A DNA stretch of 64,000 nt from an uncultured Oscillospiraceae bacterium (GCA_947627325.1 CANQVO010000003.1:43263-107262); one strand, 5' to 3'; positions 1,024 through 64,000 are shown, counted from the first letter of the stretch. Numbers and translations are program-made. The notes: generated by a model not told the origin, from the letters alone.

Positions 1024-4000
1024 GCCGCGCCCACCCTCACCAGCACGCCCGACGGAAAGGGCGGCTTCCTCAGCGACCACCAGGAGACGGTCAAGCTCCC
1101 TGTCCGGGTGGGCTACGGCGTGAGCCAGAACCTGATCTACGACAAGATCTGGGTCTTCACCACCATGACCGACGAGGACACCGACGAGACCTCCACCATG
1201 CTCACCGCCCGCTACGCCGTCCAGCCCGAGACGGTGCCCCAGGCCGGTGACCCGGGTGATCCCGCCAACGGCATCCCCGCCGACTGGGACATCGCCTCCA
1301 ACGTGGCGTCCATCCCCGTGTCCAAGCTGGTGCAGAGCGGCCCCACCGACAAGACCAAGGACGAAAACCTGCCCATTTGGGACACCGAGAGCGGCCAGCT
1401 CAGCGAGGACCAGTATGACGCGCTGTACGACGTGACCATGCAGTACAACCTGACCCTGACCGACCAGCAGTACGCCGTGGTGTTCAAGGACGGGGTCAAG
1501 CGGTACTACTCCGTGGGCTTCAACATCTCCGAGCGGGACCGGGCCGTGCCCAGCGCCGAGGACAGCTCCATGCTCTACGGCTACGTCCACGAGGACGAGG
1601 CGCCCAACGTGGACATCGTGGACACCAAGGACAAGCAGGAGCCCTATCCCACCCTGACCCGGAACAACGCCGTGCTTCTGCCCACCGAGCTGAAGGACGT
1701 CTATAAGGTCGTGGGCATCGTGGAGGACGCCATCGACTGGGAGGAGAACGGCATCTACGCCGGCAAGGTCAAGGTGACGGTGGAGGACGCCAACAACTTC
1801 GCCACCCCCATGGTCAGGGCGGGGGAGAACTTCACCGTGGCCCTGAAGTCGGACGGCACCGTTTGGGCCTGGGGCGACAACTCCTACGGCCAGCTGGGCG
1901 CCGGCTACACCTATGAAGAACTGCCCTACGCGCCCTACCCCATGCGGGTGGCCGGGGTCGGCCCCCGGGACGGCGCGCCCATCATGCAGCGCCTTACCTT
2001 AATTAAAGAGGTCGCCGCCGGGGACAACTTCGCCCTGGCCCGGACGGCGGACGGCTCGGTCTACGCCTGGGGCGACAACTCCAGGGGCCAGCTGGGCCAG
2101 AACGAGGACATCTACCTGCGCTACGACGCCTCCGGCGACGAGGTGGACGTGGAGATCGACCCCGACGCCCTGGCCGCCCTGCGGGGGAGCTGTTATCCCA
2201 TCCAGGTCACCGCCGGGACCAGCGCCGAGGACAGCGGCAGTGACTACCTCATGGGCGCCACCGCCATCGGCGCGGGCGGCAGTCACGCCCTGGCCGTGGT
2301 GGGGGATATGGGCTGGGTCTATGCCTGGGGCGACAACAGCCGCGCCCAGCTGGGCACCGGGTACACCCCCGCCGCCATCGGCGATCTGCGCACCTACCCC
2401 GACCACGTGATCCAAAACCGCAACGGCGAGAGCGCCGAGCAGAAATACCTCACCGACGCCATCAGCGTCACCGGCGGCACCTGGAGTTCCTACGCCATCG
2501 GCCCCTTCCCCTACGCCAGTTCCGGCAGCGGCGCCGCCCAGGGGGACAGCACCTATGTGGCCGTTTGGGGCGACAACCGCTGGGGCCAGCTGGGCGTGGG
2601 CCCCATTGAGAGCAGCCAGATCGACGACGAATACTACCAGACCACGGTGGCCTATATGCGCCGCAAGACCGGCGACGGCGGCGAAACCGACCTGGCCGAC
2701 GGCATCACCCAAGTTGCCGCCGGCGAGCGCCATGCCGTGGCCATGACCACCGGCGGCATGATCTACGCCATGGGCGATTACAGCTACGGCCAGCTGGGCA
2801 AGGTGGGCGCGCTGGACAGCACCAACGTGGGCTACATCGGCTACGCCAACACCCTCAGCGACGAGAAGGGCACCATCAGCGACGCCCTGGGCGTGGCCGC
2901 GGGGAAGTACCACACCGTGATCCTCCGGGGCAAACGGGCCGGCGACGAGAACGACCCCGGCCCCATCACCAGCAGTTACATCCAGGTGATGGGCACCAAC
3001 ACCAACGGCCAGTTGGGCCTGCCCGCCGTGGACGAGGACGGCTACTACCAGAGCCAGAAGCTGGGCGCCGTCAATTCCGGGGAGAGCTACCAGACCATCC
3101 GCACGCCGGACAGCGCGGAGGGCGTGGTCATCGCCCTGGCCGCCGGCGGGGCCCACACCATCGCCCTCACCGACCTGGGCGAGGTGCTGGCCTGGGGCAA
3201 GAACGAGTCGGGCCAGCTGGGGGAGATGTCCCTGGTGGACCGGGGCGGACCCGCCACCAGCCAGGAGACCGGCATGGCCAGCCAGGCCGGCTTTGACGAG
3301 GCGTACATCCCCACCGCCTCCGGCGTGGTGAACTACGGCGGTGCGCTGAAGTTCGGCGTGCGGATGGAGACCTGGCGCAACGGCGCGCGCTGGGACGACC
3401 TGGGCGACGGGGACTACAACCAGTGCGAATACACCCTCTGGCCCAACCTGCCCACCAACCTGGGCACGGACCCCAACGCCGCGGAGAGCGCCGGGAAGAC
3501 CCTGCCCTACCCCCTGAAGAAGACGGTGGAGGCGGGCAACGGCAACTACACCCACTACGACGGGACGGATATCCCCGGCGGCAGCTACAACATCTGGTCC
3601 AAAGCCGATGGCGAGGACTGGAAGGACACCGGCGCCGAGGTGAAGGTGACCAAGGGCGTGGACTTTGAGGCCCACCCGGCCATCATCAACTTCTTCAAAG
3701 TCGAATTCGACGTGGTGAACTCCAACACCACCAACACCGCCGCCCCCGCCATTGAGGCGGAGTACACCGTGGGCGGCATCACCAGCACCATCCACAACGG
3801 CGACAGCGTCTGGGGCGGCGGCACTCTGGTGCTGAAGGCCATGGGCGCCGGCGGCGAGGACCCCAATTACACCTACACCTGGACCACCGTCCCCACCCTG
3901 GCGGACGGGGAGTACGAGGTCGCCCTCCAGCCCAGAGAGGGACAGCAGGCGGTGTTGGACGGGATCTTCACCATCCCCACCCTGATGAGCCAGATCCAGA

Positions 4001-7000
4001 TCCACTGCTCCATCTACACCCCGCAACTCTTTGACGTCACCCTGAACATCCGCAAGGACAACGGCCCGTGGTCCAACAGCGGCAAGCTCCTCTTCCTCAA
4101 GAGCGACTACCGCACCGTCCAGCTGCAGCCGTCCGCCGACGGCAGTAGCGCCTACGTCCCCGTGGTGTGGAACGAGACGGACGAGATCTGGGAGAAGGTC
4201 CAGCTGCCCGAAGGGGAGTACACCATCTGGGAGTACAAGAGCGACTGCTACGATACGGACGGGAACCTCCAGCTGAACCTCTGCTACGAGAGCCCCCACG
4301 TCATCCAGGTGGAGGGGCAGGACGCCACCGATGACCTGGACTACTATACCTTAAATATCGCCACCAAGCCGGTGGGCGGCGTGTCCATGGCCTATGTGGT
4401 GGTCAACTACGCCTCGGTGACCGATGACGACGGGGAGGACAAATACGCCCCCCTGAACAACTGGCGTCTGCAGGACGTGGTGATGCGGGACGCGCCGCTG
4501 ATGGTCCAGGCCATCGGCACAGTGGCCTCCGGCTTCTTCACCGGCCGGGTGAACTCCACCTGGACCGTGGGCCCGCAGAACACCAACGCCCAGACCGGCT
4601 TTACCGAGATCCCCAACCGGGACGGCACCCTGCCCAACCGCCAGCAGCAGCTCCGGGGCACCACCGCCACCCAGATCTACAAGGCCAACGGCTACGGCGT
4701 GGATCTGCTGGTCACCATGGACGGCATGGTGGGCACCGACCCCACCTTTGTCAGCCCCATGGAGATCCAGGTCACCGTCAACGGCGAGCCGAACCCCGCC
4801 GCCATCAGCGGCTACCGCTTCTTCGCCGAGAGCCAGAACGGGCGGAGCGGCGTGTCCGGCCAGCGCACCTGGGCCAGCTATGAGTTGACCAACCAGGGCG
4901 ACGGGATCTTCTACGCCCCTGACGGACTGCCCCGGGATCGGTACATGATCTACGTCCAGTACCCCGCGGAGAAAGGCAAGAGCGTCAAGATCCCCGTGAA
5001 GATGAGCGACTTTACCCTGACCCAGACCGGCTACACCACTGCGGCCTACCCCAGCGGCCTGGATCCCGAGGTCGCCCCCCTGGAGATCCCCCTGCGCCAG
5101 GTCAAGTATCAGATCCAGGCGCAGAACAACGCGGCCTCCGGCGCCTCGGGCACCGAGGGCTACGTGCAGGTCATCAGCGGCATCTCCTCTGACGCGGCCT
5201 GGGCGTGGGACTATCAGTTGCAGCCGGGCGAGGCGGATAACCATTCCGGCACCGTCCACGGCGAGCTCCACAATGGCCACACCCACCTGGGCACCATCAT
5301 CGCCGACCCGGACAACCCCGACCCCGAAAAGCAGACGGTGGTGGTGAAGAGCATCAAGGTCACCGGCGGCCAGACCGCCGATGGCAGTTTCATCGTGCCC
5401 ACGAACAACCTGATCTCGGTGCAGGCCATGGGCGACCACGCGGACACCTTTATCATCAGCGCCGAGTGGGTGACCGACAGCGCCGATAAGTACCACAACA
5501 CCAGCGACCTGCCCGCCGGCACCCCGGTCACCGTCAGCACCGACCCCAGCTACCACGTGAACCTCCCGGCCACCAGCGGGACCTACGACCCCACCTACGA
5601 TGTGGCCTGGGACTATGACAACAACACCTTTACCGGCACCTTCAGGCCCAAGGGCATTTCGGGCAACCTGGAGACGGAGGCTCTGCCCCTGGAGACCCTG
5701 AATCAGCTGACCATCGGCTTTGTGGGCTACGGCAACACACAGAGCGGCAGTTACGGCCAGGTCCAGCTCACCTCCCTGGAGATGCTGCCCCAGGAGGAGG
5801 ACGGGGACTTCTACGCCTCTATCCTGGCCAAGGGCGGCGGCTACCTGCTGACATTGGCGGCGGACACGCCCGCCCCCATGGGCGGCGCCATCCAGAGCCA
5901 GGTCATCGTCCCCGGCCGGGAGCTGGCCAACTGGGAGGCCGGCGCGCCCAAGCTGGACGCGCTCTCCCTGGGCAGCAGTATCGAGCTGATCACCGGCGAC
6001 ACGGTGGACATCGTGGGCAGTATCGAGACGTACATCCCCGACTACCGCCTGGCCTACTACTCCGCCCACCCCGACTATTACCGCAACACCACCCTGGGCG
6101 GGGACGCCATGGAACAGCCCTACATCCAGACGCCGCCGGAGAAAGTGGACGGCGCCGAAGTGGACGAGATGGGAACGCCCATCCAAGTGGTCAACCCCGA
6201 CCGCTATGTGCAGACCGGGGTGGGTGAGGACGGCGCTCCCATCTACCGGGACTTCTGGCAGGACGCGGAATTGACGCTGACCACCTCCAACCCCGACGTG
6301 GTCAGTGTGAAGGACTATACCTTGACAGCTATGGGCCAGAGCGGCTGGGCCACCGTGCGGATCTACAACACCGTCACCGGCCGGTCGGCCATGCTCCGGG
6401 TCCACGTGCTCAACGTGGAGGACGCCACCGGCGACGGCCACGAGAGCGAGTGGGCCTATAAGTCCACCCCCATGGTGGCCTATGGCGACAACTTCTCCGT
6501 GGCATTGAAGGCGGACGGCACCGTGTGGGCCTGGGGCGACAACGCCCAGGGCCAGCTGGGCGTGGGCTACGCCCCCGAGGTGCTGGCCTATTCCGAGGCG
6601 CCCATGGTGGTGCGCTGTTACGACGCCGCCAACGACGCCACCCCCACCCTGCGGAACGTGGTGGCCATCGCCGCCGGGGCGGATCACGCCGTGGCCCTCA
6701 CCCGGGACGGGCAGATCTACGCCTGGGGCGACGACAGCTTTGGCGAGCTGGGCGTGGCCCGGGAGGACTTCCCCTACACCGAGACCACCGTGGTGGACGG
6801 CGTCAACACCGAAGTCGTAGTGGGCTACGGCAGTTACTTCGCCACCCCCGCCCAGGCGGACAACATCTCCGGCCAGGTGGTGGAGATCGCCGCCGGGGAC
6901 GGCTTTACCGTGGCCCGCACGGAGCGGGGCACCGTTTGGGCCTGGGGCCGGAACGACAAGGGCCAGCTGGGTGTGGGCTACCGGGGCGACGTGCTGGGCG

Positions 7001-10000
7001 CGGACGCCGTTCGGGAGGAGAACCTCCTGCGGGTCACCGAGCCCAGCCTGTTCACCGACCTGTTCCAGACCATCTACCAGCTGGACCCCGTGAGCGACGC
7101 CGCGGAGCTGGCCGCGTTGAGCGCGCGCTATCAGCGCCCCGCCCAGGGCCTCTACCTGGACAGCTACTACCTCTATGTGAAATACCTCCGGGATCTGAGT
7201 ATCTTCGTGGCCCAGCAGGGCGGCGGCCTGACGAGTGCCGGCGCGCTGGAGATGATGTACGACAACAGCGGCGCGCTCATCGTGCCCCTGGAGGACTACC
7301 GGGGCAACGAGATGCCCACCATGGAGACCTACATCCTGGCCCTGGAGCTCTATGACGAGATGCAGAAGTATCTCCAGGAGACCCACAACACCTGGGTGAG
7401 TCTGCCCGGCACCGCCGAGGACTACAAGGCGTTCCACCGCTTTACCCCCGTGGCCAACGCCAAGGTGGACGGGCGGATCGTGTTCAACACCCAGTGGGAG
7501 CTGGCCCGGCCCACCTACACCGGGGTCAAGTGGTCCTACGAGGACTACCAGCGGGCCAAGGCCGAGTACGACCAGCGGCAGCTGGACGGCACCTGGGTCA
7601 GCGTCAACGGCGCCTACGCCAGCGGCCTGGGCGGCGACGTGTTGGAGGGGGAGCCCACCTTCGCCCTCTATACCGCCGTGCCCCAGCAGGTGATGGAGGG
7701 CGAGGCGGCCAGCAAGGGCTACTACCTCAGCGAGATCATGAGCATCAGCGCCGGCCGGGCCCACGTGATGGCCCTGCGGAAGGACGGCGCCCTGTTCGGC
7801 TGGGGCGACAACACCTACGGCCAGCTGGGCCGGGGCGTGGACAGCACCCTGGCGCGCAGTGACAAGTTCGACTGGCAGGACCGGGACGGCCTCTACACCC
7901 GGGGCCAGAAGGCCGACGACGCCGTGGGCGCCACCTTCACCTACCGGGTGCCCGTGCGGGTCAAGGTGGGCCAGATCGTGGGCGCGATGAAGAGTGAATC
8001 GTCCGCGCAGGACAACGCGCTGGGCAACCTGGTCAACGTGATGGAGGTGGCCGCCGGGGGGAACCACACCCTGGTCCTGCTGTCCGACGGCACGGTGGCC
8101 GCCTTTGGCGAGAACACCTATGGCCAGGTGGGCGACGGCACGGTGGCCCAGGTCACCTACGACGTGGCCGGCCTGGTGGACGGGACCAACGGCGAGCCGG
8201 AGGAGGACTGGGTCACCGCCCGGGATCTGGTGGAGGACCAGATCCGGGCGCGGCGCGTGCCCATGGCCGTCCAGGTCATGACAAAGGGCGGCCAGGTGCT
8301 GGGCCAGGTGACTGGCTCTGACGGCGCGGCCAACCGGGTGGTCCGCCTGGCCGCCGGCGGGGACGCCAGCGTGGCCATCGTCCGGGACACCGTGACGGTG
8401 GAGTTCGGCGGGCACACCACGGAGAACACGCTGATGGCCTGGGGCTCCAACATGGAGGGCCAGCTGGGCCTGGACGAGGTGGCGGACGACTGGGTCTCCG
8501 GCGAGCGCACCGCCTTTGTGGGCCACGCCCTCCAGGTACAGCAGGGCACCAGCACCAACACCAACCAGACCTACTCCGGCTTCACCCGGGCGGTGGAGGT
8601 GACGGCGGGCGGCCATCACATGGGCGCTCTGCGGAGCGACGGCTACGTTTGGGACTGGGGCGACAACACCTACGGCCAGCTGGGCGACGGCACCACCGAC
8701 ACCCACTTCGACGCCGTCCAGGCCGGCGACGGGGAGTCCAAGAGCCTGATCCTCAGCGAGTATCAGCGTATCGAGCCCGACGGCACCACCCATACCTATA
8801 ACCAGCTGCGTCCCATGGGTGAGGAGAACGACACCGTGGCCCAGGACGCCTCCAACGACGGCACCAACGGCAACCCCAACATCCTCATCATGGGGGAGGG
8901 GGACTACCTGCGGCTGGACCTGGCCAACATCCTCTACGCCCACCGCACCGGCTTCAACCTGTACAGCGACGGGGAGAACCTCTCCATCCAGGACAAGCTG
9001 GACAAGGTGAAGGTGGGGGTCACCGACGACTCCTACTTTGAAGTCACGGACCTGGGCGGCAGCCAGTATGAGATCCGGCCCACCCAGCGCAGTGACGGCC
9101 AGAAGCTGGGCCTGACCAGTGTCTACATCGACTACGAGTTCGGCGGGGCCACCAACGCCGACCACACCGAAGACCCCGCCACCAGCAACATGATGGTCCT
9201 GCCCATTTGGGCCAGACATAAGCAGATCTACGACGGATCGGAGGGCTCCGACCCGTCCAACGCGCATATCTCCGCGGCCCCCATGGTGGCCGCGGGGGCG
9301 AAGCACGCCGTGGCGCTGGACTCCCTGGGCCGTGTGTGGGTCTGGGGCGACAACAGCCGCGGCCAGCTGGGTCTGGACAACCTGGGCCTGGACGGCGGCG
9401 CGGCCGTGCTGTACCAGGATCACCCCGTCCAGGTCACCCAGTTCCGCAAGATCGACACCGCCACCGGCCAGATCGTGGAGGCCGTGGCTGAAGGCGGCGG
9501 GCCCCTGACCTTCACCGCCGTGGCCGCCGGGGCGTACAGCACCTACGCCGTGGACATCGACGGCCGGGTGTGGGCCTGGGGCGACAACGACAAGGACCAG
9601 CTGGGCCGGGGCACCGACGACCGGTTCCAGGACTTTGAACCCCTCCAGGTCCGGGTGCGGGTGAGCAAGCTCACCACCCTGGGCGACGAGGTCATCACCA
9701 AGGAATATCTGAAAGAACTGCCCGGCGTGGGCACGCTGATCCAGACCTATAAGGACCGGGACAAGATCGTGGCCCTGGCCGCCGGGGACGGCTTTGCCAT
9801 GGCCCTGTCGGAGAGCGGCTTTGTCTACGCCTGGGGCGACAACGCCGCCGGCCAGCTGGGCAACGGCGAGCGCAAGAAGGCCAGCGGTAACTACGCCCTG
9901 TGGGTGAGCAAGGGCAAATCCCCCAGCGACACCAACCATATGCGCGAGGCGGTGGGCATCGCCGCCGGAGGCTCCTCCGGCGCGGTCCTCTTCTCCAACG

Positions 10001-58000: not shown

Positions 58001-61000
58001 CCGCCCACGGCCAGTTCGGCACCCCCAACTACTCCCTGCAAGGGCCCAACTACGCCGAGATCGGCTCCTTCGTCCGCATGGCCGCCGACGGCGTCAGCGT
58101 GGAGGAGGCCCTGCCCACGGACTACGCGGGCCATCCCATCCGCTCCGCCAGCCGCTTCATCGCCATCGGCGCCGGGGCCGGGTCCGTGGCCGCCATCGAC
58201 GTGGACGGCGCGGTGGCCGTTTGGGGCTCCAACGCCAAGGGCCAGCTGAGCGCCTTTGAGACCAAGCAGATCTACACCCCCGCCACCTACGACCTGGTCT
58301 CCGCCGGGACGGACAGCGAGGGCAACGAGCTCCAGGCCAAGGTCCTGAAGGATCCGGGCTACTTCACGGTGACCGGGGACAGCCAGCCCGCCAATGTCCT
58401 GTACGCCAGCTATCAGAACACCTACAACACCACCTACACCGACGTTTACACCGTGGGCGGTGATACCCAGCTCATCGGCACCTACCGCTCCGTGGCCCTC
58501 CAGACCGCCATGGGCCAGACCGGCTATGTGCTCTACACCAAGCTGGGCGACGCCACCCTGGACGCGGACGGGACGGCAGACCGTTCCGCCCTGATCCCCT
58601 ACACCCTCCTGGCCTCCGGCTCCAACGCCTATGGCCAGCTGGGCATCGGCCGCGGCGGCGTGAGCGTTGCCATGTCCGCCCGGGCGGTCATGGCCGGGGA
58701 GGCCAACCCCGTGAACGCCCAGGAGCGGGTGGATAACCTGATGTTCATCGCCACCGCGCCCTACGGCGGCACCACCCTGGCCTACGACAACAACTACGGC
58801 TCGGTGTACGCCTGGGGCAACAACACCAGCGGCCAGGTGGGCGACGGCACCTACGGCAACCAGACCACCCCCGTGATGGTGCTCAAGGACGGCGGCGGGT
58901 CCTATCTGGACATCACCCACGTGCTGGTCAACGACGATCCCACCCTGCCCGACTACACCGCCACCATCCTCTTCAACGTGGCGGAGGCGGACGCCGCCGC
59001 CTCCACCGCCCAGCTGGCGGTGGCGGGCCAGGTGTTCACCGACTTCACCGGCGCCACCTCCACCGTGAAGGCCCCCGCCGGCACCGCCATCGACGCGCAG
59101 ATCGTCATGGCCCCCGAGTACACCATCGGCGCCGCGGCCATGATTACCGCCAGCGGGGTGGTGGTCCCCCTGGGCTTCACCAAGGGCGACGGCTCCGGCA
59201 CCCTGGCCGCCGGGGACAGCATCGACCGCTTCACCATGCCCGCCGAGGACGTGACCATCATGGTCACCGTGGTGGACGTGGCCTTCGGCAGCGGCGGCGT
59301 GGAGTACACCGTGCGCCTGGGCGACCAGCTGCTGGCCGCGGCCCCGTACAGCTACCTGGGCCTGAGCACGGCCCCCGCCACCAGCGCCAAGGCCATGGTG
59401 GGCGACGAGGTGCCCTTCGCCATCCAGATCCCGGACGGCCAGACTCTGACCCGCCTGCACTACTACCAGACGGACAATGAAGACGAGATCGTGGGCCTGG
59501 AGTTCACGGTGGACACCTCCACCGCGCCCAACGTGGCCTACGGCCAGTTCGTCATGGGCTCCACCGACGACAACCAGAATATCCAGTACGTCATCGAAGC
59601 GGAGTTCGGCCCCGCCGGGAGCAACCCGGCCTACGGCTTGGAGCTGGACGTGGTGGACAACTACAACCCGGTGCCCGGCACCTCCACCACCGCCAGCAAC
59701 TCCGTGTCCATCACCTCCACCAGCGGCGGCCTGGGCCTGAGCGGGATCACCGCCGACAACGACATCCTCAACGGCCAGACCGCCATCCGGGCCGGTGACC
59801 TGGTCACCGTGACCGCCAACCTGGGCAGCCCCGCCTACTACATCCAGGTGACCGCCGCCACCAAGAACTTCGGCACGTACACCGTGCCCGTCTACGTCCA
59901 AGACGGCTCCACCGCCACCTTCGTCATGCCCTCGGACGACGTGGAGCTCACCGTCAAGTTCCTCTACGGCGCTATCACCACCGTCCAGTACGACACCCTC
60001 ATCTCCGCCAAGGGGGAGATCACCACCGCCATCAACTACGGCGACGCGGTGCGGATCGCGGTGAAGGACATCGTGGCCAACCTGGGCTTCAACGCCTACG
60101 GCCCCTTCCGCTACACCCCCAAGCCGGAGAACCTGACCTTTATCTCCACCAACGAGCGGGTGGCCACCGTGGACAACAACTGCTTCCTGGTGGACGGCTA
60201 CGGGAACTACGTGGACCAGGCCGGGAACGTGGTGAACGAGGCTGACCGGGTCTATAACCCCGACTTCGGCCTGGTGAAGGCGGGCTCTGAGACCGCCGGA
60301 TACACCTACATCATCGTCAGCGACGACCGGGGCAACGTGGGCTACTTCAAGCTGGGCGTGGTGCCCGGGCCGCAGATGGTGGACGGCGTGGCCCTGAAGA
60401 AGGACGTGGCCTTCCCCATGATCGAAGTGGGCGCCCAGCACACCATCGCTTTGAAGTCGGACGGCTCGGTCTGGGCCTGGGGCCGCAACAACCTGGGCCA
60501 GCTGGGCCTCCAGCGGGGCACCACCCAGTCCACCACGCCCACGGAGGTCCTGGCCGTGGTGGATAACCGGGGCAACACCGCCCCCTTGACCGGCGTGGTG
60601 AAGATCGCCGCGGGCGGCAACCACAACCTGGCGCTGAAGTCGGACGGCTCGGTCTGGGCCTGGGGCGACAACGCCTTGGGCGCCCTGGGCATCGGCAACC
60701 AGGGCGGCGTGCAGTACGCCGCCGTCCAGGTCCACGGCATCAACCCCATGGACAACGGGATGCTGGGCAGCGACCTCTACTCCTCCGCCATCGTGGACAT
60801 CGTGGCCGCCGGGGCGGTGGACCAGAGCGGCGCCACCACCCGCCAGTACTCCATGGCGCTGGATAAGAGCGGCCGGGTCTTCGCCTGGGGCAGCAACTAC
60901 CACGGCGTGGTCAACCCCGCCGACAACACCGGCGACCGGGCCGGGGTCATCACCGTGCCCATCAACATCAGCCAGAACTTCACCACCCTCAACGATCCTC

Positions 61001-63999
61001 TGACCCTGTCGGCGGATAAGATCGCCGCCAACGCCCGGGTCCTGAAGCGGGACGGCCAGGTCATCACCTGGGGCGTCAACGACGAGACGCACCGCGCCTA
61101 CGGCGGCTACGGCACCACCGAGAGCCCCGAGCGGGCGGTGCTGGGCGGCCGCGCCCTGGAGGTCAGCGGCGGCGTGTACAACGCCGTGGCCGTCACCACC
61201 GGCGGCCAGGTGAAGACCTGGGGCGGCGACAACTCCATCGGCGGGTACGACACCCGCTACGCCAACGGCAAGCACGACGTGGAGATCCTGCCCGGGGAGC
61301 AGATGATCGACCGGGACGGCAAGCCGCAGACCGAGAGCCAGCGGCTGCCCTACGTGGACAACTACGGCAATCCCATCTACGTCCGCTATGACGACGAGAC
61401 CGGCGCCATCCTCTCCCAGGCGTACATGAACATGGGCACGGGCCGGTACTACAACGCCACCTCCGACCAGGGCGAGGACCTGGGCACCGCCGAACAGCTG
61501 GCGGAGAAGGGCTACCAGGTCTGGTACAGCGACCAGGAGACCATCGTGCCGGTCACCAACACCACCGGCGAGGCCGTGGTGGTGGAAGACGTGCTGGAGA
61601 ACTACGTCCTGCCCTCCACCTTCACCGCCCTGAGCAAGGGCTATGAGTATGGCCGGGAGGTCATCGGCTTCATCTACTCCGGCGCCACCCAGGCCGCCGA
61701 CAGCGTCACCCAGGCCGCGCCGCTGCCCGAGGCGGGCTATCCCGGCACGGTGACCATCGAGGCCGTGGAGGCCGGCTCCGCCACCGGCGGGGACGACGCC
61801 CTCTACCATAAGTCTGCCCTGCTCTACGGCTATGTGGAGATGTACAGCAAGGACCGCCAGCTCATCGGCTACGCCCCCGCGTCTTACTTCAAGCAGGACG
61901 GCGACAGCCTGGTGGTGGGCGAGGACTCCAACGGCGTGCCCTACACCACCGAGGACCTGGCCGAGGTCCTGCTGTCCCTGAACGATCTGATCGCCGGGTA
62001 TGAGACCCCCGCGGGCTACACCAAGCTCACCCGGCCCATCTATCTTGGAATGCCCGTCACCGCCGACATCTCCACCTACCTCCAGGTGGCCTACAACGAC
62101 GGCAAGCTGTGGAGCGTCGGGCCCTTCCAGTACATGAGAAAGACCACCTCCGCCGACGGCGCCAAGGACCTCTACGGTCCCGCCCTGGGCCAGGGCGGCA
62201 ACCTGGACGAAAACGGCGAGAGCTACGTCTACGCCTACCGCCAGACCGGCGATGGCGGAGAGTACCTGGTGGACGCCGACGGCCAGTATGTCCCCCAGCG
62301 GGACGAGAACGGCTATCCCATCGAGGACAAGACCCTTTGGGGCGTGCCCGGCTGGGTCTCCGCCGGTTCCGCCGGCGTGGCGGGCGCGGCCATCAACGGC
62401 ATCGTGGAGGTGAAGAACTCCGTCTCCGTCACCGACCAGCACTCCATCGTCATGAAGGCCAACGGCTCCCTGTGGGCCTACGGCAAGAACGACAACGGCC
62501 GCATTGGCGACGGCACCTCCACCTCCACCTCCATCCCCGTCCGGGTGGGCGCCAGCTACTTCATCCTGGAGGATTACCTGGTCTCCATCCGGGAGGGCGA
62601 GACCTTCCAGTTCAACGTGGATCCCAAGATCTCCGCCTTCAACGTCCTCAACAGCCTGGAGGAGGACGCCTCCAACCAGGATCTGGCCTGGTTCGTTTGG
62701 GACGCGGAGGAGGACTCCGACTGGAGCCAGCAGGGTCCCGACGAGCTCTACAAGACCTCCTGGAACGACGTGGTCAAGGTGGAGTACGAGACGCTTACCC
62801 CCAGCGAGAGCGCCGCCAAGGGCCTGAAGTACACCCAGAGCGACAAGCGGGCCACCATCACCGGCCTGAAGGCCGGGGTCACCTATGTCCTGATCTCCGT
62901 GGCCAACGACCCGCTGATCGTGGGCGCCTTCCGGGTGGAGGTCCGGCCCGGGGACGAGGTCAGCAGCGTGGCCGCCGACGGCACGCGGAAGGTCATCCAG
63001 GTGGGCGTCAGCGAGACGGCCACGATGGAGGACCGGGTGAGCGTCATGGGCGCGGACAACGCCAAGAGCGAACAGCTCCTGGCCCTGAACCGCCAGCTGG
63101 CGGAGGCCGGGACCTATGTGCCGGTGGAGCGTCAGGGCGACGTCTACGTGCCCGGCGCGGCCCGGGACAGCGAGAGCGCCGATCCGGTGCCCGCCTATCC
63201 CAGCGGCGGGCTCTACCAGGGGATGTACGACGCCTATGACGAGGCCATCCTGACCGCCCAGCACAACACCACCAAGCTGAACGCCGTCTACGGCGACAGC
63301 GTGGCCTATCCCATGGTGAGCAGCGGCACCAACTTCACCGTGGCCCTGGCCGCCGACGGCACCGTGTGGACCTGGGGCGCCAACGACTACGGCCAACTGG
63401 GCCAGGGCGACCTCTTCGGCACCACCGCCGCCCCGCGGCAGGTCATCGCCCAGGTCCGGGCCGACCAGTACGACGGCTTCCCGGCGGGCACTGTCATCCG
63501 CTACGAATACCTCAACAACGTCCGCAAGGTGGTGGCCGCGGGCAACTTCGCCTACGCCTTGAAGAACGACGGCACCGTGTGGGCCTGGGGCCGCAACAGC
63601 TCCGGCCAGCTGGGCCTGGGCGGCGGCTACCAGGAGTACCTGCGCGTGCCCTACGCCACACAGATGCTGGCCGGCGGCCAGGCCGCCGCCACCTACTCCA
63701 GCGTCTACCTCCAGGAGATCGTGGATATCGCCGCCGGCGGCGTTGACGACGCCCACGGCTTCGGCTACTTCATCCAGTCGGTCTACCGCCGGGGCCAGGT
63801 GGAGGACGCGGAGTCCACCACCGGGCTGACCACCAAGTTCTACAACCTCACCGACAACGTCTTCGGCGTGGGCGACAACGCCAGCAACCAGCTGAGCCTG
63901 CTCAGCACCACCAGGACCTTTACCACCCCCGTGTCCATCCGGGTCTCCAGCGGCATCGCCGCCCAGGTGTCCATCGGCACCGCCGCCACCGGCTCCATC
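1..63999 (+). CDS. Internal fragment of one giant multi-domain protein (at least 21,333 codons visible; 5' and 3' ends both outside the window): tandem RCC1-like beta-propellers separated by Ig-like (Big_2-like) and other beta-sandwich domains
   Basis: Frame +1 gives the RCC1 blade signature (hydrophobic-AAG-x2-H-x-[VL]AL-x2-DG-x-[VLI]-[YW]-x-WG-x-N-x2-GQLG) from codon 1 to the last codons. One example is VAIAAGADHAVALTRDGQIYAWGDDSFGELG at 6661-6753. Third codon positions are almost always G/C in this frame. The ORF track reports only ORFs that end in a stop, and it lists no frame-1 + ORF at all, so frame +1 has no stop in 64 kb. Hand translation of segments from every module met no stop and no frame change. 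All four giant minus ORFs are in the same codon register (start coordinate mod 3 = 1), as expected for antisense shadows of a frame +1 gene. Confidence 0.93.
1807..3222 (+). repeat. RCC1-like beta-propeller P2 (seven blades counted)
   Basis: Entry [33 protein letters not shown] (1801-1899). Later blades end YAWGDNSRGQLG (to 2097), YAWGDNSRAQLG, VWGDNRWGQLG, YAMGDYSYGQLG, VMGTNTNGQLG and LAWGKNESGQLG (to 3222). Confidence 0.85.
3223..6468 (+). other. ~1,080 aa non-RCC1 beta-rich array between P2 and P3 (several InlB-B-repeat-like / Ig-like units, ending in a Big_2-like domain)
   Basis: There are no GQLG/WG blade motifs here. Units repeatedly end in an F-x-[IV]-P-...-alternating hydrophobic strand, e.g. 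GIFTIPTLMSQIQIHCSIY (~3960-4020) and GSFIVPTNNLISVQAMGDHADTFIISAEW (~5385-5470). The terminal Big_2-like stretch is LTLTTSNPDVVSVKDYTLTAMGQSGWATVRIYNTVTGRSAMLRVHVLN (6271-6414). Confidence 0.5.
6469..8685 (+). repeat. RCC1-like beta-propeller P3 (seven blades counted, split by a helical insertion)
   Basis: Entry [32 protein letters not shown] (6466-6561). The last blade, [31 protein letters not shown], ends at 8685. The downstream spacer 8686-9279 contains the Ig-like VKVGVTDDSYFEVTDLGGSQYEIRPTQRSDGQKLGLTSVYIDYEF (9007-9141). Confidence 0.85.
7021..7731 (+). other. ~237 aa probably alpha-helical insertion between blades 3 and 4 of P3
   Basis: NLLRVTEPSLFTDLFQTIYQLDPVSDAAELAALSARYQRP...METYILALELYDEMQKYLQETHNTW...WSYEDYQRAKAEYDQRQLDGTW. 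The segment has helix-favouring composition, heptad-like hydrophobic spacing and no blade motifs. The propeller resumes at [32 protein letters not shown] (~7735-7830). Confidence 0.5.
9280..10776 (+). repeat. RCC1-like beta-propeller P4 (seven blades counted)
   Basis: Entry APMVAAGAKHAVALDSLGRVWVWGDNSRGQLG (9277-9372). The last blade, GETFIVFARETGTVFASGDNTAAQLG, ends at 10776. A Big_2-like domain follows: LEFTSLDESIVRLESATDTRVTFATASPIKYGNTYIQVYDRATGRTLLLRVSVVP (11026-11190). Confidence 0.85.
11491..12702 (+). other. ~400 aa mixed alpha/beta insertion inside P5 that carries a Cys4 motif
   Basis: It starts after blade 2 (…REVYVVGG) with LSSITTNLIHTPSEEELTQIHRANFAKVMKLFGNAEQNVLAFYQDESGAW… and ends before ILDVAAGADHLLALTAGGEIYAAGANGHGELG. 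It has no blade motifs and is rich in Y/W/F. Confidence 0.55.
12382..12459 (+). other. Cys4 motif C-x4-C-x14-C-x4-C (possible zinc-ribbon-like knuckle pair)
   Basis: Codon-by-codon read: LLL-C-DYPN-C-GLQYDPSDTITPVI-C-NEPG-C-DKV. The Cys codons are at 12382, 12397, 12442 and 12457. A further WRCQNDH lies at ~12592-12612. Cys is otherwise very rare in this protein. Confidence 0.4.
14113..15975 (+). repeat. RCC1-like beta-propeller P6 (seven blades counted, long loops)
   Basis: Entry [25 protein letters not shown] (14107-14181). Internal blades include [32 protein letters not shown] (~14827-14922) and [32 protein letters not shown] (~15058-15153). One blade loop carries an E/P-rich PAPAPEEEGEPSADT (15301-15345). 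The propeller ends at FSGRNKERQG (15975). A Big_2-like domain follows: VITYTSSDETIAQFEYDAQKGMYCLRPTKEAYGRLIITVNNVHDNYRGDYEVIVLP (16291-16458). Confidence 0.8.
16495..18012 (+). repeat. RCC1-like beta-propeller P7 (seven blades counted)
   Basis: Entry VTVKAAENATIALQANGTVWMWG (16495-16563). Later blades include GFALAASNSGKVYAWGRNDRGQIG, VVAGKDHALALRSDSLVYAWGDNTQGELG, DAGDNYSMVMTRDGRVFTFGDNTYGRLG and NAGPNHAMALSVDAKNELYAWGKNTFGQLG. A Big_2-like domain follows: LWVDSSDPSVAVAEIVPGVEGGIRVTTTGVGTANIYLYNT...YTTIFRVRS (18403-18600). Confidence 0.8.
18682..20133 (+). repeat. RCC1-like beta-propeller P8
   Basis: Entry AVPMVASGLNFTVALKANGTVWFWG (18679-18750). Later blades include LAAGKYHALALTSELLW...[13 protein letters not shown] (~19530-19665) and the last blade, FGENTTVGVQAEGSVWAWGSDTNGALG, which ends at 20133. 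A ~300 aa spacer follows (20134-21030), ending in the Ig-like strands VNIGAGGQVTVVFQDLEHKAQALVMLRVIP (~20806-20895). Confidence 0.8.
21031..22494 (+). repeat. Degenerate RCC1-like propeller P9 (most blades have lost the WG-x-N-x2-GQLG motif)
   Basis: Entry LPKVAAGGDHFLALSSDGAVYSWGGNFRGQLG (~21028-21123), exit LTEAGEIFTSGSNTLGQLG (to 22494). Blades in between keep only the strand cores: VIDLAAGDEASIAVNAKGVAYQWGWSFTMMQ, VAVYYGLSADGHLYQKYEYG and VLVALAADGSVYYQDIAYNG. A Big_2-like domain follows: FVYEVSDERLFTVEPTLDGDLLIKANTNGYYGQGILTVYDTVTRAQGSLSITVRQV (22957-23124). Confidence 0.65.
23173..24375 (+). repeat. RCC1-like beta-propeller P10
   Basis: Entry APKIAAAANYSAALTADGSIWVWG (23170-23241). Blades include [58 protein letters not shown] and [27 protein letters not shown]. 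The last blade, LGDRHGLALRDDGTVYAWGANDHQQLG, ends at 24375. A Big_2-like domain follows: FYTVASSNENVAVAKLTPDGTTVTITPTPGGYGTAVILLKW... (24901-25104). Confidence 0.8.
25168..26499 (+). repeat. RCC1-like beta-propeller P11
   Basis: Entry [32 protein letters not shown] (25165-25260). Blades include VGDTFALALDKNGQVWAWGQNGSGQLG and AAGGAFAGAVDRNGYVYTWGVNTKGQLG. The propeller ends at TDGTVWAVGRGTSGQLG (26499). A Big_2-like domain follows: VVRYTLSDYTIATFIEGTVGSDNQATGGVVKLASTEKKLGSTDLIIAVY... (26794-27000). Confidence 0.8.
27022..28683 (+). repeat. RCC1-like beta-propeller P12 (contains a ~165 aa beta-rich loop insertion at ~27560-28050)
   Basis: Entry TAVAAGVDHSVALAEDGTLWVWGSNRQGQLG (~27022-27114). 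Blades include [81 protein letters not shown] and LGESHGLAVMENKGEVYAWGLNAQGQTG. The propeller ends at AAGSNEGYKLG (28683). A Big_2-like domain follows: VEWVSGDTSVATVDVVNSDTAHKAVMRPVTGHYGLSVIRVTNTVSGHTGSLRLTVTQ (29044-29214). Confidence 0.8.
29242..30732 (+). repeat. RCC1-like beta-propeller P13
   Basis: Entry [32 protein letters not shown] (29239-29334). Blades include [56 protein letters not shown] and AAGTYQSYAVSETGDLYAWGNNDHGELG. The propeller ends at [24 protein letters not shown] (30732). The spacer 30733-31428 contains the Ig-like LRVSLTDPRLGRVEKVANVTDGVDGIVFTPSTDTMGSTMMEISYTAADGATYTMLIHLVVS (31186-31368). Confidence 0.8.
31429..33129 (+). repeat. RCC1-like beta-propeller P14 (zinc-knuckle insertion after blade 1)
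   Basis: Entry [31 protein letters not shown] (31429-31521). Blades include [79 protein letters not shown] and GGKSHAVALTRDGAVYTWGQ. The propeller ends at YAAGTNSEGQTG (33129). A Big_2-like domain follows: FTFFSSDESIVQINYVTDSEGRNVGAKIIPTGQIEGEYYDRFGTATVVVVDRVNKNWGSFKVTV (33565-33762). Confidence 0.8.
31591..31659 (+). other. CxxC-x16-CxH zinc-ribbon-like knuckle inserted in the loop after blade 1 of P14
   Basis: Codon read: EEYFY-C-PV-C-DKPIPASAFDANGHYT-C-A-H-LDG. Cys codons are at 31591, 31600 and 31651, and His is at 31657 (another His at 31642). Confidence 0.45.
34003..34914 (+). other. ~300 aa Ala/Leu/Asp/Thr-rich, probably alpha-helical (possibly coiled-coil-like) segment inside the P15 insertion
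   Basis: Verified codon by codon: DWDTAYEAAETALATWTATESARLSAYNTAKSDLDAMGWAAQRDDLIARIDALANETTAAITQIDQSVTTLNTY...MAEHMAALKTALTTRLAGYQNMRQALANLGDD...YDAVTRIDKLLQGAEID...AADLFNAYKAMNANEYFQKRTTVDDKWTEWMDAKKEADPYRNTMAFYQAMMDLDRV. Long stretches have no Gly or Pro, and there are no blade motifs. Confidence 0.55.
34915..35409 (+). other. Possible BspA-type leucine-rich-repeat (LRR_5-like) patch, followed by an acidic EPEEAEEEPDRES linker (35410-35448)
   Basis: YPGVVAITGLSDEGKAARELVLPTRLTESDYTTVFQ...VVLVDFDENNTGHQFSDGAFTSLTLSGSYQVVRVGAFQNTRMNTLVFQAEIPTSGAILASSFTS...YLTQVEVDNVQLAGGQMKPDALAATGIFSGVHIVAV. The repeated x-AF-x4-L-x2-L/V-x-F/V pattern resembles BspA-like LRRs. This is pattern recognition only. 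Confidence 0.3.
37774..39261 (+). repeat. RCC1-like beta-propeller P16 (carries an ~90 aa loop insertion with an H/C motif)
   Basis: Entry [32 protein letters not shown] (37771-37866). Blades include [105 protein letters not shown] and NHIYVWGNNDHGQLG. The propeller ends at YSFGEGELGELG (39261). A Big_2-like domain follows: LHVKIVDESLLTYAYDRSRTRLTFSAVHPDKFGETMVVLTYDYTDPATGETFHYVYQFPVFVKD (39559-39750). Confidence 0.8.
39778..41571 (+). repeat. RCC1-like beta-propeller P17 (zinc-ribbon insertion after blade 1)
   Basis: Entry [33 protein letters not shown] (39778-39876). Blades include [95 protein letters not shown]...NVYAMGTNLYGEMG and SYAFGINDRGQLG. The propeller ends at GYVWGWGNNATTATGTTILGQLS (41571). 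The spacer 41572-42381 contains a weak Ig-like signature, WAAVMSNPDIARVDVTNNASDNVLIFSEG... (42001-42170). Confidence 0.8.
39952..40026 (+). other. Classical CxxC-x17-CxxC zinc-ribbon motif inserted in the loop after blade 1 of P17
   Basis: Codon read: AAWA-C-PQ-C-GRVYDEAHSFATDDAIP-C-AT-C-GATVTK. Cys codons are at 39952, 39961, 40015 and 40024. It sits between PVQV (blade 1 exit) and [14 protein letters not shown] (blade 2). Confidence 0.6.
42382..43954 (+). repeat. RCC1-like beta-propeller P18
   Basis: Entry TVAGMNFSAMNTTDGNVWVWGDNVYGVLG (42382-42468). Blades include [94 protein letters not shown]...KVYGWGGNNRKQL and AELYTWGDGDLGQLG. The propeller ends at GYIWGWGNNRYLQLG (43954). A Big_2-like domain follows: ITVEVTDPTIAVANNVGGQWVIRSAGRNEYGQTSVVFKAYE...FQVVATSVLQLEIYP (44317-44565). 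Confidence 0.8.
44584..46512 (+). repeat. RCC1-like beta-propeller P19 (long aromatic/His/Cys-containing loops)
   Basis: Entry [32 protein letters not shown] (44581-44676). Blades include [100 protein letters not shown] and GGDSSAAIDAQGHLYVWGDNAYGQLG (to 46218). A degenerate last blade runs to ~46512. The spacer 46513-47313 ends in the Big_2-like FTVISSDESILAVHVKPGTDGYFELRAMPNAFGTVTVMIRENTTQVTRMFSVSVRP (47101-47268). Confidence 0.75.
47314..48711 (+). repeat. RCC1-like beta-propeller P20
   Basis: Entry [32 protein letters not shown] (47311-47406). Blades include [75 protein letters not shown] and TLYGIGSNSQNQLG. The propeller ends at [24 protein letters not shown] (48711). A Big_2-like domain follows: LVFKSLNTRLITFSDSATGLALIHWENVETGMYTYVTVTDINTGYTAQIRVAFVDD (49018-49185). 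Confidence 0.8.
49267..50733 (+). repeat. RCC1-like beta-propeller P21
   Basis: Entry [26 protein letters not shown] (49264-49341). Blades include [83 protein letters not shown] and AGDLFSLALDDSGHVWYWG. The propeller ends at SHMVLMTENGALYAYGSDAYAALG (50733). A Big_2-like domain follows: YQVEILGGENIVSYDPTTGTLTASATATGVVQVVVRDVEHMDANGQYLELGVITLVVN (51031-51204). Confidence 0.8.
51244..52836 (+). repeat. RCC1-like beta-propeller P22 (a ~125 aa insertion precedes the last blade)
   Basis: Entry APMVAAGDDFTMALTADGRIYTWGTTDNGVLG (51241-51336). Blades include [97 protein letters not shown]...NVYAFGYNYLGSLG and [28 protein letters not shown]. The last blade, VSDEHMVMIRDDGFVLTSGRNDHGQIG, ends at 52836. 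A Big_2-like domain follows: FKVSASNPIVDVIQRQDSAGGSLFYIRP...GSTVITITETVTGLSVQFTLNILK (53119-53325). Confidence 0.8.
53371..54504 (+). repeat. RCC1-like beta-propeller P23 (several degenerate blades)
   Basis: Entry [32 protein letters not shown] (53368-53463). Blades include AAGGQHAVAIDKDGKVYTWGRNAY, AAGSAHTLFLTSAGTVYAYGSNSRGQLG and AAGGNVSMAVTQSGLLYLWGQGDVGQQG. The propeller ends at FAMDAKGAIYGWGSNARGALG (54504). Confidence 0.75.
54697..54786 (+). other. Acidic E/P/A-rich low-complexity linker (probably disordered)
   Basis: Codon read: EDLQAPAEEPVEEPAQASEEEMAEEPAAAA. It lies in the P23-P24 spacer (54505-55353). That spacer is the only propeller junction without a recognisable Big_2-like signature. 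Confidence 0.6.
55354..56790 (+). repeat. RCC1-like beta-propeller P24
   Basis: Entry [32 protein letters not shown] (55351-55446). Blades include AAGNNHILALDRGGSVYAWGYNDQSQLG, AAGNRFSVAVDADGFVYTWGANNSGVLG, AAGDRHILALDQYGNVYAWGDNAYGQLG, GFNTSAVIRQDGTVWLFGDQSYG and GYRHMMALGRDGAVYSWGSDNFGQLG. The propeller ends at SAGMYHSVVLMEDGTVYAMGYNNTMQLG (56790). A Big_2-like domain follows: VTLRSLNEEVAVIRTETTADGRNVAVVDVVGFGVGYIVAEYVDPDTGLHYSNAFRVYG (57127-57300). Confidence 0.8.
57355..58842 (+). repeat. RCC1-like beta-propeller P25
   Basis: Entry YPQVGVGENFSVVLRDNGTVWTFGSNYDTATGVG (57352-57453). Blades include [108 protein letters not shown] and LLASGSNAYGQLG. The propeller ends at NYGSVYAWGNNTSGQVG (58842). 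Confidence 0.8.
58843..60414 (+). other. ~520 aa non-RCC1 beta-sandwich array: three ~100 aa InlB-B-repeat-like units plus a terminal Big_2-like domain
   Basis: Verified codon by codon. Unit ends are DRFTMPAEDVTIMVTVVDVAF (~59224-59286), GQFVMGSTDDNQNIQYVIEAEF (~59542-59607) and ATFVMPSDDVELTVKF (~59911-59958), each preceded by an a-x-aGd-x-V-x-V/I-type strand (e.g. IRAGDLVTVTANLGSPAYYIQVTAA). The Big_2-like stretch is LTFISTNERVATVDNNCFLVDG...GLVKAGSETAGYTYIIVSDDRGNVGYFKLGVVP (60133-60366). Confidence 0.45.
60415..62508 (+). repeat. RCC1-like beta-propeller P26, interrupted by a ~385 aa insertion before the last blade
   Basis: Entry [32 protein letters not shown] (60412-60507). Blades include [68 protein letters not shown] and YNAVAVTTGGQVKTWGGDNSIGG (to ~61245). 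The last blade, VTDQHSIVMKANGSLWAYGKNDNGRIG, ends at 62508. A Big_2-like domain follows: VVKVEYETLTPSESAAKGLKYTQSDKRATITGLKAGVTYVLISVANDPLIVGAFRVEVRP (62770-62949). Confidence 0.75.
61246..62400 (+). other. ~385 aa non-RCC1 insertion of unknown fold inside P26
   Basis: YDTRYANGKHDVEILPGEQMIDRDGKPQTESQRLPYVDNYGNPIYVRYDDETGAILSQAYMNMGTGRYYNATSDQGEDLGTAEQLAEKGYQVWYSDQETIVPV...YLGMPVTADISTYLQVAYNDGKLWSVGPFQYMRKTTSADGAKDLYG...YVYAYRQTGDGGEYLVDADGQYVPQRDENGYPIEDKTLWGVPGW. It is Tyr/Gly/Asp-rich, with no blade motif and no family signature that I recognise. Confidence 0.45.
63310..63999 (+). repeat. RCC1-like beta-propeller P27 (partial, cut by the right window edge)
   Basis: Entry [32 protein letters not shown] (63307-63402). 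It continues with [29 protein letters not shown] (~63529-63615), IVDIAAGGVDDAHGFGYFIQSVY... and NVFGVGDNASNQLS. The frame is still open at 63999. Confidence 0.8.
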
Positions 64000-64000
64000 C

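What the first reader, a model, noticed from the sequence alone, without database searches (positions are those of the whole stretch)
1999..63756. The 14,408-aa, 4,213-aa, 1,051-aa and 766-aa minus-strand ORFs are in-register antisense shadows, broken only by four rare sense codons
All four minus ORFs share the codon register of frame +1 (1999, 4351, 17185 and 20530 are all 1 mod 3). Each of their stop codons is the reverse complement of a sense Leu codon that I read directly: TTA at 1999-2001 (L in RLTLIKE), TTA at 4351-4353 (YYTLNI), CTA at 17185-17187 (IKTLSS) and CTA at 20530-20532 (GYNLRT). I checked the gaps between the ORFs and found no further TTA/CTA/TCA codons. The sense gene therefore uses only 4 such codons, and no TCA, in about 21,333 codons. 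That extreme bias produces a 43-kb stop-free antisense frame. The antisense translations are G/A/V/D/H/L/P-rich strings with no recognisable domain. Naive longest-ORF or length-weighted gene calling on this locus would pick the wrong strand or fragment the gene.
Basis: seen in the sequence. Interest (0 to 1): 0.6.

Follow-up and report, generated by a model that had tools for sequence, protein, structure and literature searches.

The report
Mirror-image ORFs opposite giant gene
The huge minus-strand reading frames are non-coding mirror images of a real 40,653-codon surface-protein gene that almost never uses the three codons that read as stops backwards; this is an extreme example of a well-known artefact, not a new gene.

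Summary
Frame +1 is open across all 21,333 codons of the window. It holds exactly four TTA/CTA codons, at 1999, 4351, 17185 and 20530, and no TCA, so the in-register antisense frame has only four stops.

- The sense frame has GC3 of 0.95, a positive coding score and overwhelming RCC1-propeller hits in every 5,000-aa piece.
- Five other species of the same genus keep it as an open frame of 39,600 to 42,500 codons.
- The antisense translations (19,949 aa tested) hit no Pfam family, score negative on the genome's codon model and find no relative among 5.8 billion proteins.
- In an alignment of six species, only 9% of codon changes are synonymous in the antisense frame, against 32% in the sense frame.

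The lack of antisense stops is a by-product. All A-ending codons are 6 to 40 times rarer here than in the rest of the genome. Control codons whose complements are not stops (CCA, ATA) are just as depleted.

Three corrections apply.
- The gene really spans 40,653 codons, and the longest shadow frame is 20,417 codons (61 kb).
- Pfam finds no Big_2 domain in the window.
- A longest-ORF caller would still pick the sense strand.

The gene class (Oscillospiraceae RCC1-type giant genes) and the shadow-ORF mechanism are both published.

The parts
1..64000 (+). Internal part (about codons 1,025 to 22,357) of a 40,653-codon gene for a secreted giant protein built of RCC1 propellers. The gene runs from the ATG at contig C3:40191 to the TGA at C3:162150.
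   Evidence: Open frame with 0 stops. Full extent, Shine-Dalgarno site and signal-peptide-like N-terminus. RCC1, RCC1_2 and WD40_RLD hits at E from 1e-166 to 0 in each 5,000-aa piece. Orthologous open frames of 39,571 to 42,514 codons in five species of the same genus.
1999..2001 (+). Sense Leu codon TTA, read as antisense stop TAA
4351..4353 (+). Sense Leu codon TTA, read as antisense stop TAA
17185..17187 (+). Sense Leu codon CTA, read as antisense stop TAG
20530..20532 (+). Sense Leu codon CTA, read as antisense stop TAG
1..1590 (-).
   Evidence: In the genome this stop-free stretch is C3:39954-45260.
1999..4299 (-). Non-coding in-register shadow ORF, 766 aa
   Evidence: no Pfam family
4351..16992 (-). 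Non-coding in-register shadow ORF, 4,213 aa
   Evidence: no Pfam family. Between species, the antisense translations match at 69 bits over 222 aa, against 298 bits over 705 aa for the sense translations.
17185..20340 (-). Non-coding in-register shadow ORF, 1,051 aa
   Evidence: no Pfam family; no relative among 5.8 billion public proteins
20530..63999 (-). Non-coding in-register shadow frame. It is 14,408 aa from the first GTG at 63756 and is open to the window's right edge. In the genome it is 20,417 codons stop to stop.
   Evidence: No Pfam family in 13,919 aa of it.

Best explanation
The minus-strand ORFs are not genes. They are the codon-for-codon reverse complement of one real plus-strand gene of 40,653 codons, which encodes a secreted protein built of RCC1 beta-propellers in an uncultured gut Oscillospiraceae bacterium.

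In that register an antisense stop can only arise opposite a sense TTA, CTA or TCA. The sense gene ends 95% of its codons in G or C and only 0.9% in A. It therefore holds just 7 such codons in all (4 in the window), and the mirror frame stays open for up to 20,417 codons. These steps are shown directly.

The cause of the bias is inferred: unusually strong translational selection on this gene. Its codon preferences shift in the same direction as those of the genome's ribosomal-protein, chaperone and elongation-factor genes, but further. Avoidance of A/T-ending codons also strengthens steadily from the 5' to the 3' end. That is what selection against costly ribosome drop-off or errors in a very long message would produce. 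The open antisense frame is a passive by-product and is not itself selected.
For: Register and stops.

The sense frame is coding:
- GC1/2/3 of 0.63/0.47/0.95.
- +0.77 bits per codon on a codon model trained on the rest of the genome.
- RCC1 families at E from 1e-166 to 0.
- Orthologous open frames of 39,571 to 42,514 codons in five species of the same genus, at about 40% protein identity.
- No internal DNA repeats above about 70% identity over 300 bp, so it is not an assembly artefact.

The antisense frame is not coding:
- -0.23 bits per codon.
- In 0 of 2,707 sliding 60-codon windows does any other frame outscore the sense frame.
- 0 Pfam families in 19,949 aa.
- No homologue for the 1,051-aa ORF.
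- Composition without W or Y.
- In a six-species alignment of 166 codons, differences at sense positions 1/2/3 are 0.31/0.31/0.43. Differing codons are synonymous in 32% of cases in the sense frame and 9% in the antisense frame.
- BLASTP between species gives 298 bits for the sense and 69 bits for the antisense translation.

By-product, not selection on the antisense frame:
- All A-ending codons are 0.015 to 0.28 times the genome level, apart from GAA at 0.54. Control codons CCA (0.025) and ATA (0.067) match TCA (0.015) and TTA/CTA (0.066/0.091).
- Orthologues also have long shadow frames, but stop density differs: 2, 3, 3 and at least 8 per 6,666 codons.
- Other large genes of this genome carry shadows of 2,100 to 3,800 aa.
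- tRNAs for TTA, CTA and TCA are present.

Translational selection:
- The lowest-A3 genes of the genome include rplB and groEL.
- The codon shift correlates with that of the highly expressed set, Spearman 0.65.
- There is a 5'-to-3' decline in A/T-ending codons, z about -8 within synonymous groups. It is shared by 26 of 27 other large genes and resets at each gene start.

Literature:
- The frame -1 mechanism is described in bioRxiv 10.1101/724807 and in Silke 1997, Gene 194:143, as cited in PMC3454372.
- The gene class is described in bioRxiv 10.1101/2023.11.21.568195.
Against: Antisense expression is therefore not excluded experimentally.

CTA plus TCA are somewhat rarer than the pooled A-ending share of the other four-fold boxes predicts: 2 observed against 13 expected (P=2e-4). 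That pooled share is inflated by GGA, and CCA is equally depleted.

The highly expressed gene set is on average much less biased than the giant gene (A3 3.4% against 0.87%). Expression level alone therefore may not explain the bias. A mutational or gene-conversion contribution was not tested.

Orthologues were sampled over only 20 kb each.
Confidence: 0.96

Rival explanations
1. One or more of the antisense ORFs, or a short piece of one, is a real overlapping gene translated from an antisense transcript. Such genes have been reported in Pseudomonas aeruginosa and seen nested in other giant genes.
For: Long stop-free frames exist. Real antisense overlapping genes are documented (PMC8850804, listed). 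Earlier notes of this scan describe small genes nested antisense in other giant genes. The antisense translations of two species still align at 69 bits over 222 aa.
Against: The evidence against is broad.
- No Pfam hit in 19,949 aa, and no homologue in 5.8 billion proteins.
- A negative coding score throughout, with 0 of 2,707 windows in which another frame outscores the sense frame.
- Substitutions behave as non-synonymous in the antisense frame.
- The residual antisense similarity lies only where the sense protein is best conserved. It is expected from shared second codon positions.
- The composition is unlike a protein.
Confidence: 0.02
2. The openness of the antisense frame is itself under selection, meaning TTA, CTA and TCA are avoided because they make antisense stops, for some strand-symmetric reason.
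For: The three codons rank 1st, 3rd and 5th lowest among the 14 A-ending codons in their ratio to the genome. CTA plus TCA are below the pooled expectation.
Against: Matched controls whose complements are not stops are just as depleted: CCA 0.025, ATA 0.067, GTA 0.12. The counts involved are tiny (1 to 4). Stop density in the mirror frame varies at least four-fold among orthologues. The same shadows occur opposite many unrelated genes of this genome.
Confidence: 0.02
3. The shadows are non-coding, but the extreme GC3 and low A3 of the sense gene come from a neutral process rather than translational selection. Candidates are mutation bias, GC-biased gene conversion among its many paralogous propeller units, or acquisition from a genome richer in GC.
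For: The gene is more biased than the average ribosomal-protein gene. It consists of dozens of paralogous modules that could recombine. Contig C3 has the highest GC among the large contigs.
Against: The evidence favours selection over a neutral process.
- The shift is towards C-ending codons specifically (C3 64% against 50%, while G3 falls from 38% to 32%), not towards GC in general.
- The direction of the shift matches that of highly expressed genes.
- The gradient follows the direction of translation, resets at gene starts and is shared by 26 of 27 large genes.
- Internal repeats are at most about 70% identical, so recent gene conversion is unlikely.
- The gene is vertically conserved across the genus.
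Confidence: 0.2

Closest known systems
Frame -1 'shadow' or antiparallel ORFs caused by biased codon usage (Silke 1997, Gene 194:143, cited in PMC3454372; Mir et al. 2012, PMC3454372; bioRxiv 10.1101/724807)
   Same: The register is exact, codon for codon. Antisense stops arise only opposite sense TTA, CTA and TCA. The long open mirror frames are explained by avoidance of these rare Leu and Ser codons in GC-rich or codon-optimised genes, and nothing shows that they code.
   Different: The difference is only one of scale. The window holds 14,408 codons from the first start codon (14,489 to its edge), and the genome holds 20,417 codons (61 kb) stop to stop. That is far longer than the hundreds to a few thousand codons usually discussed, because the sense gene is itself 40,653 codons.
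Oscillospiraceae RCC1-type giant genes (West-Roberts et al. 2023, bioRxiv 10.1101/2023.11.21.568195)
   Same: The sense gene encodes more than 30,000 aa and is made of RCC1 propeller repeats along its length. It is predicted to be extracellular and comes from a Clostridia/Oscillospiraceae genome of gut type.
   Different: That preprint does not use the words 'antisense' or 'codon'. The extreme codon bias, the 5'-to-3' gradient and the shadow frames described here are therefore not discussed there. Here the last 1,500 aa and a 1,082-aa segment have no Pfam hit.
Translated antisense overlapping genes in Pseudomonas aeruginosa (Kreitmeier et al. 2022, PMC8850804)
   Same: These are long antisense ORFs embedded in annotated genes of a GC-rich bacterium.
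   Different: Those ORFs are reported to be translated and under purifying selection. Here the antisense frame shows no purifying selection, no homologues and a negative coding score.

Membership tests
Non-coding frame -1 shadow ORF | Exact codon register with a sense gene, with every antisense stop opposite a sense TTA, CTA or TCA | tested here: met
   the four stops lie at 1999, 4351, 17185 and 20530, all in phase with frame +1.
Non-coding frame -1 shadow ORF | The sense frame is demonstrably the coding one | tested here: met
   GC3 of 0.95. RCC1 hits at E from 1e-166 to 0. Orthologous frames of about 40,000 codons in five species. Excess of substitutions at third positions.
Non-coding frame -1 shadow ORF | The antisense translation lacks domains, homologues, coding-type codon usage and purifying selection | tested here: met
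   0 families; no homologue; negative score; no other frame ever outscores the sense frame; 9% synonymous against 32% in the sense frame.
Non-coding frame -1 shadow ORF | The lack of stops is explained by the general codon bias of the sense gene | tested here: met
   All A-ending codons are depleted, and control codons CCA and ATA are as depleted as TCA, TTA and CTA. Shadows are found across the genome.
Non-coding frame -1 shadow ORF | No transcription or translation of the antisense frame | not testable with these tools
No proteomic resource was available.
Oscillospiraceae RCC1-type giant gene | A single ORF of more than 30,000 aa | tested here: met
   40,653 codons from the ATG at C3:40191 to the TGA at C3:162150.
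Oscillospiraceae RCC1-type giant gene | RCC1 repeats (PF00415) along the length of the protein | tested here: met
   Each of four 5,000-aa pieces has 13 to 21 RCC1 and 12 to 15 RLD stretches, and the N-terminal 1,024 aa also hit. The last 1,500 aa have no hit. The 15,400 aa between the window and that tail were not scanned.
Oscillospiraceae RCC1-type giant gene | Host belongs to the family Oscillospiraceae (Clostridia) | tested here: met
   The best EF-G matches are uncultured Oscillibacter (84%), Dysosmobacter (83%) and Oscillospiraceae MAGs. This assigns the taxon by nearest relatives, not by a formal phylogeny.
Oscillospiraceae RCC1-type giant gene | Secreted, without transmembrane anchors | tested here: inconclusive
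   A signal-peptide-like N-terminus was read by eye. No signal-peptide or transmembrane predictor was run.
Functional antisense overlapping gene | Purifying selection or conservation of the antisense product beyond what the sense frame imposes | tested here: not met

The most novel reading that the evidence does not exclude
The near-absence of A/T-ending codons may be more than the organism's ordinary bias. It may be a signature of selection that scales with length and position. Across a 40,653-codon message, every ribosome stall, frameshift or drop-off wastes an enormous investment. Rare codons are therefore purged more strongly than in ribosomal-protein genes, and increasingly so towards the 3' end: about 6% falling to 3.3% A/T-ending, with z about -8 within synonymous groups. 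If so, this conserved gene family would be a natural test-bed for the 'nonsense-error' theory of codon usage, and the record-length shadow frame would be its visible side effect.
Probability: 0.4. Interest if true: 0.45.

Novelty: already known. Interest (0 to 1): 0.2.

Why it matters
The main value is practical. On contigs that lie wholly inside such giant genes, ORF lists that demand a start and a stop show only the mirror frames. Annotators and automated scans should therefore assign the strand by GC3 or codon usage, not by ORF completeness.

The instance is also a striking teaching example: a 61-kb stop-free frame that codes for nothing.

The codon-usage side is mildly interesting for translation biology. 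The bias is stronger than in ribosomal-protein genes, and it forms a monotonic 5'-to-3' gradient over 122 kb. The mechanism of the shadow frames themselves has been textbook knowledge since the 1990s.

Tried and rejected
- The search for related loci with the 1,082-aa non-propeller segment found no relative in genome contigs.
- Loci fetched from other genomes are not readable in the Python box. The orthologues' antisense frames were therefore sampled with the ORF listing on one 20-kb piece each, not counted over their whole length.
- The first DNA alignment (A1) used the wrong strand and end for three loci and was discarded. A2 replaced it.
- I considered that the antisense frame's openness is itself selected. 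I rejected this because control codons are equally depleted.
- I considered small genes nested antisense, as seen in other giant genes. I rejected this because in none of 2,707 sliding windows does another frame outscore the sense frame.
- I considered an assembly artefact from repeats. I rejected this because internal DNA similarity is at most about 70% over less than 300 bp, and five other assemblies show the same gene length.

Full report
**Observation.** The window is one uninterrupted plus-strand reading frame of 21,333 codons, open at both ends. A direct count finds 0 stops in frame +1 and 4 in the in-register antisense frame. The other four frames have 205 to 975. The only TTA/CTA/TCA codons in frame +1 are TTA at 1999 and 4351 and CTA at 17185 and 20530; there is no TCA. 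The four minus-strand ORFs have exactly the stated coordinates and lengths. A fifth in-register shadow ORF (1..1590) runs off the left edge.

**Wider context.** The window is contig C3:43263-107262 of a 2.30-Mb assembly of 30 contigs with about 65% GC. The frame continues on both sides. It is 40,694 codons from stop to stop. The likely start is an ATG at C3:40191, preceded by GGAGG and followed by a signal-peptide-like sequence, which gives 40,653 codons. The whole gene holds 7 TTA/CTA/TCA codons.

The gene has no internal DNA repeats better than about 70% identity over less than 300 bp. It is therefore not a repeat-assembly artefact, and its codons are effectively independent observations. 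EF-G places the genome among uncultured gut Oscillospiraceae, with Oscillibacter and Dysosmobacter MAGs as best matches at 83 to 84%.

**Which strand codes.**
- *Base composition.* GC at codon positions 1/2/3 is 0.63/0.47/0.95 in frame +1. The mirror frame has 0.95 at its first position, which is why T-initial stop codons are so rare there.
- *Coding score.* On a codon model trained on about 1,480 other ORFs of the genome, frame +1 scores +0.77 bits per codon and the in-register antisense frame -0.23. The other frames score -0.64 to -1.72. In 0 of 2,707 sliding 60-codon windows over the whole gene does any other frame outscore the sense frame. Nothing therefore suggests a small nested antisense gene of the kind noted in other giant genes.
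- *Domains.* Pfam gives RCC1, RCC1_2 and RCC1-like-domain hits at E from 1e-166 to 0 in each of four 5,000-aa sense pieces. It gives no family at E<=0.01 in 19,949 aa of antisense translation.
- *Homologues and composition.* The 1,051-aa antisense ORF has no relative among 5.8 billion public proteins, not even a call from this assembly. The antisense composition (G 22%, V 18%, A 14%, L 10%, H 7%; essentially no W or Y) is not protein-like.

**Comparative evidence.** Five other species of the same genus carry open frames of 39,571 to 42,514 codons at the homologous locus, at about 38 to 43% protein identity. Over one orthologous segment, the sense translations of two species align at 298 bits across all 705 residues. 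The antisense translations reach 69 bits over 222 residues, only where the sense protein is best conserved.

A six-species DNA alignment of 166 gap-free codons gives the same answer. Pairwise differences are 0.31, 0.31 and 0.43 at sense positions 1, 2 and 3. Differing codons are synonymous in 32% of cases in the sense frame but in only 9% in the antisense frame. Purifying selection therefore acts on the sense protein alone.

The orthologues also have long mirror frames, with differing stop densities. In 6,666-codon samples there are 2, 3, 3 and at least 8 stops.

**Why the mirror frame is open.** TTA, CTA and TCA together occur at 0.17 per 1,000 codons in the giant gene. The rate is 3.3 to 3.9 per 1,000 in the rest of the genome and about 1.7 in a crude set of highly expressed genes. 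At the genome's rate the window would hold about 69 such codons rather than 4.

This depletion is not specific to those three codons. Nearly all A-ending codons are 0.015 to 0.28 times the genome level (GAA is 0.54), and A3 is 0.87% against 4.9%. Control codons whose complements are not stops are just as depleted: CCA at 0.025 and ATA at 0.067, compared with TCA at 0.015, TTA at 0.066 and CTA at 0.091. tRNAs for all three codons are present. Other large genes of the genome carry in-register shadows of 2,100 to 3,800 aa. The open mirror frame is thus a passive result of codon bias, as the literature on frame -1 ORFs describes.

**Cause of the bias (inferred).** The giant gene lies at the extreme of its genome's own range but inside it. 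Its A3 is in the lowest 1.3% of genes and its GC3 in the top 3.4%. It shares that extreme with rplB, groEL and genes of the ribosomal-protein operon on C8.

Its codon shift relative to the background correlates with that of the highly expressed set (Spearman 0.65, P about 2e-8). The shift is much larger, and it goes towards C-ending codons specifically.

A/T-ending codons decline steadily along the gene, from about 6% to 3.3% (Spearman -0.90 over 20 bins). The trend holds within synonymous groups (z = -8.1; 16 of 18 groups). It is shared by 26 of 27 other genes of at least 1,500 codons, and it resets at each gene start.

This pattern fits translational selection that grows with the investment already made in a nascent chain. 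That idea is old: positive length-bias correlations in E. coli were attributed to selection for accuracy (Eyre-Walker 1996, from my own knowledge; the expectation is restated in the abstract of PMC3096941). A mutational or gene-conversion contribution was not excluded.

**Comparison with what is known.** The sense gene belongs to the 'Oscillospiraceae RCC1-type giant genes' described by West-Roberts et al. 2023. Shadow ORFs in frame -1, whose stops lie opposite TTA, CTA and TCA, are a long-recognised consequence of codon bias. The present case is larger but of the same kind.

- No Big_2 domain is detected by Pfam in the window. Big_2 and SLH domains do occur in a neighbouring 3,644-aa gene.
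- A longest-ORF rule would still choose the sense strand, because the sense frame is always the longer one. Only tools that require complete ORFs on contigs internal to the gene are at risk.

**Limits.** Orthologues were sampled over 20 kb each, because their DNA could not be read in scripts. The background gene set was defined crudely, as long ORFs with a coding-type GC pattern, and includes short 5' extensions.

**Verdict.** This is an ordinary, well-understood phenomenon at record scale, and its interest is low.

Noticed in passing
Contig C3:40191-162152 (the window is C3:43263-107262): The gene that fills the window is 40,653 codons (122 kb, 5.3% of the genome). Five other species of the same genus keep it as an open frame of 39,571 to 42,514 codons at only about 40% protein identity.
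   Followed up: partly
Whole giant gene, including window 1-64000: A/T-ending codons fall steadily from about 6% at the 5' end to 3.3% at the 3' end (z about -8 within synonymous groups). The same sign is seen in 26 of 27 other genes of at least 1,500 codons, and the gradient resets at each gene start.
   Followed up: partly
Contig C3:162452-194237 (downstream of the window): Three more large same-strand genes (1,927, 3,644 and 5,007 aa) follow the giant gene directly. The 3,644-aa one has SLH and Big_2 domains, which suggests a cell-surface gene cluster of about 154 kb.
   Followed up: partly
Window 3223-6468, and C3:157650-162149: A 1,082-aa non-propeller segment and the last 1,500 aa of the giant protein have no Pfam hit at E<=0.1. 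The 1,082-aa segment is nevertheless conserved across the genus at E of 1e-82 to 1e-165.
   Followed up: partly
Whole genome (aragorn run): aragorn reports a tRNA-His with anticodon ATG beside the normal GTG. It finds no tRNA-Ile(GAT) or tRNA-Ala(TGC), which probably sit in unassembled rRNA operons.
   Followed up: no
Contigs C16, C26, C29, C30: These contigs have GC of 0.37 to 0.56, against about 0.65 for the rest of the assembly. They may be mobile elements or bin contamination.
   Followed up: no
Window 1-64000, + strand: Third positions are strongly C-rich (C3 64%, G3 32%), and the sense strand has negative GC skew throughout (-0.04 to -0.10) with positive AT skew.
   Followed up: no
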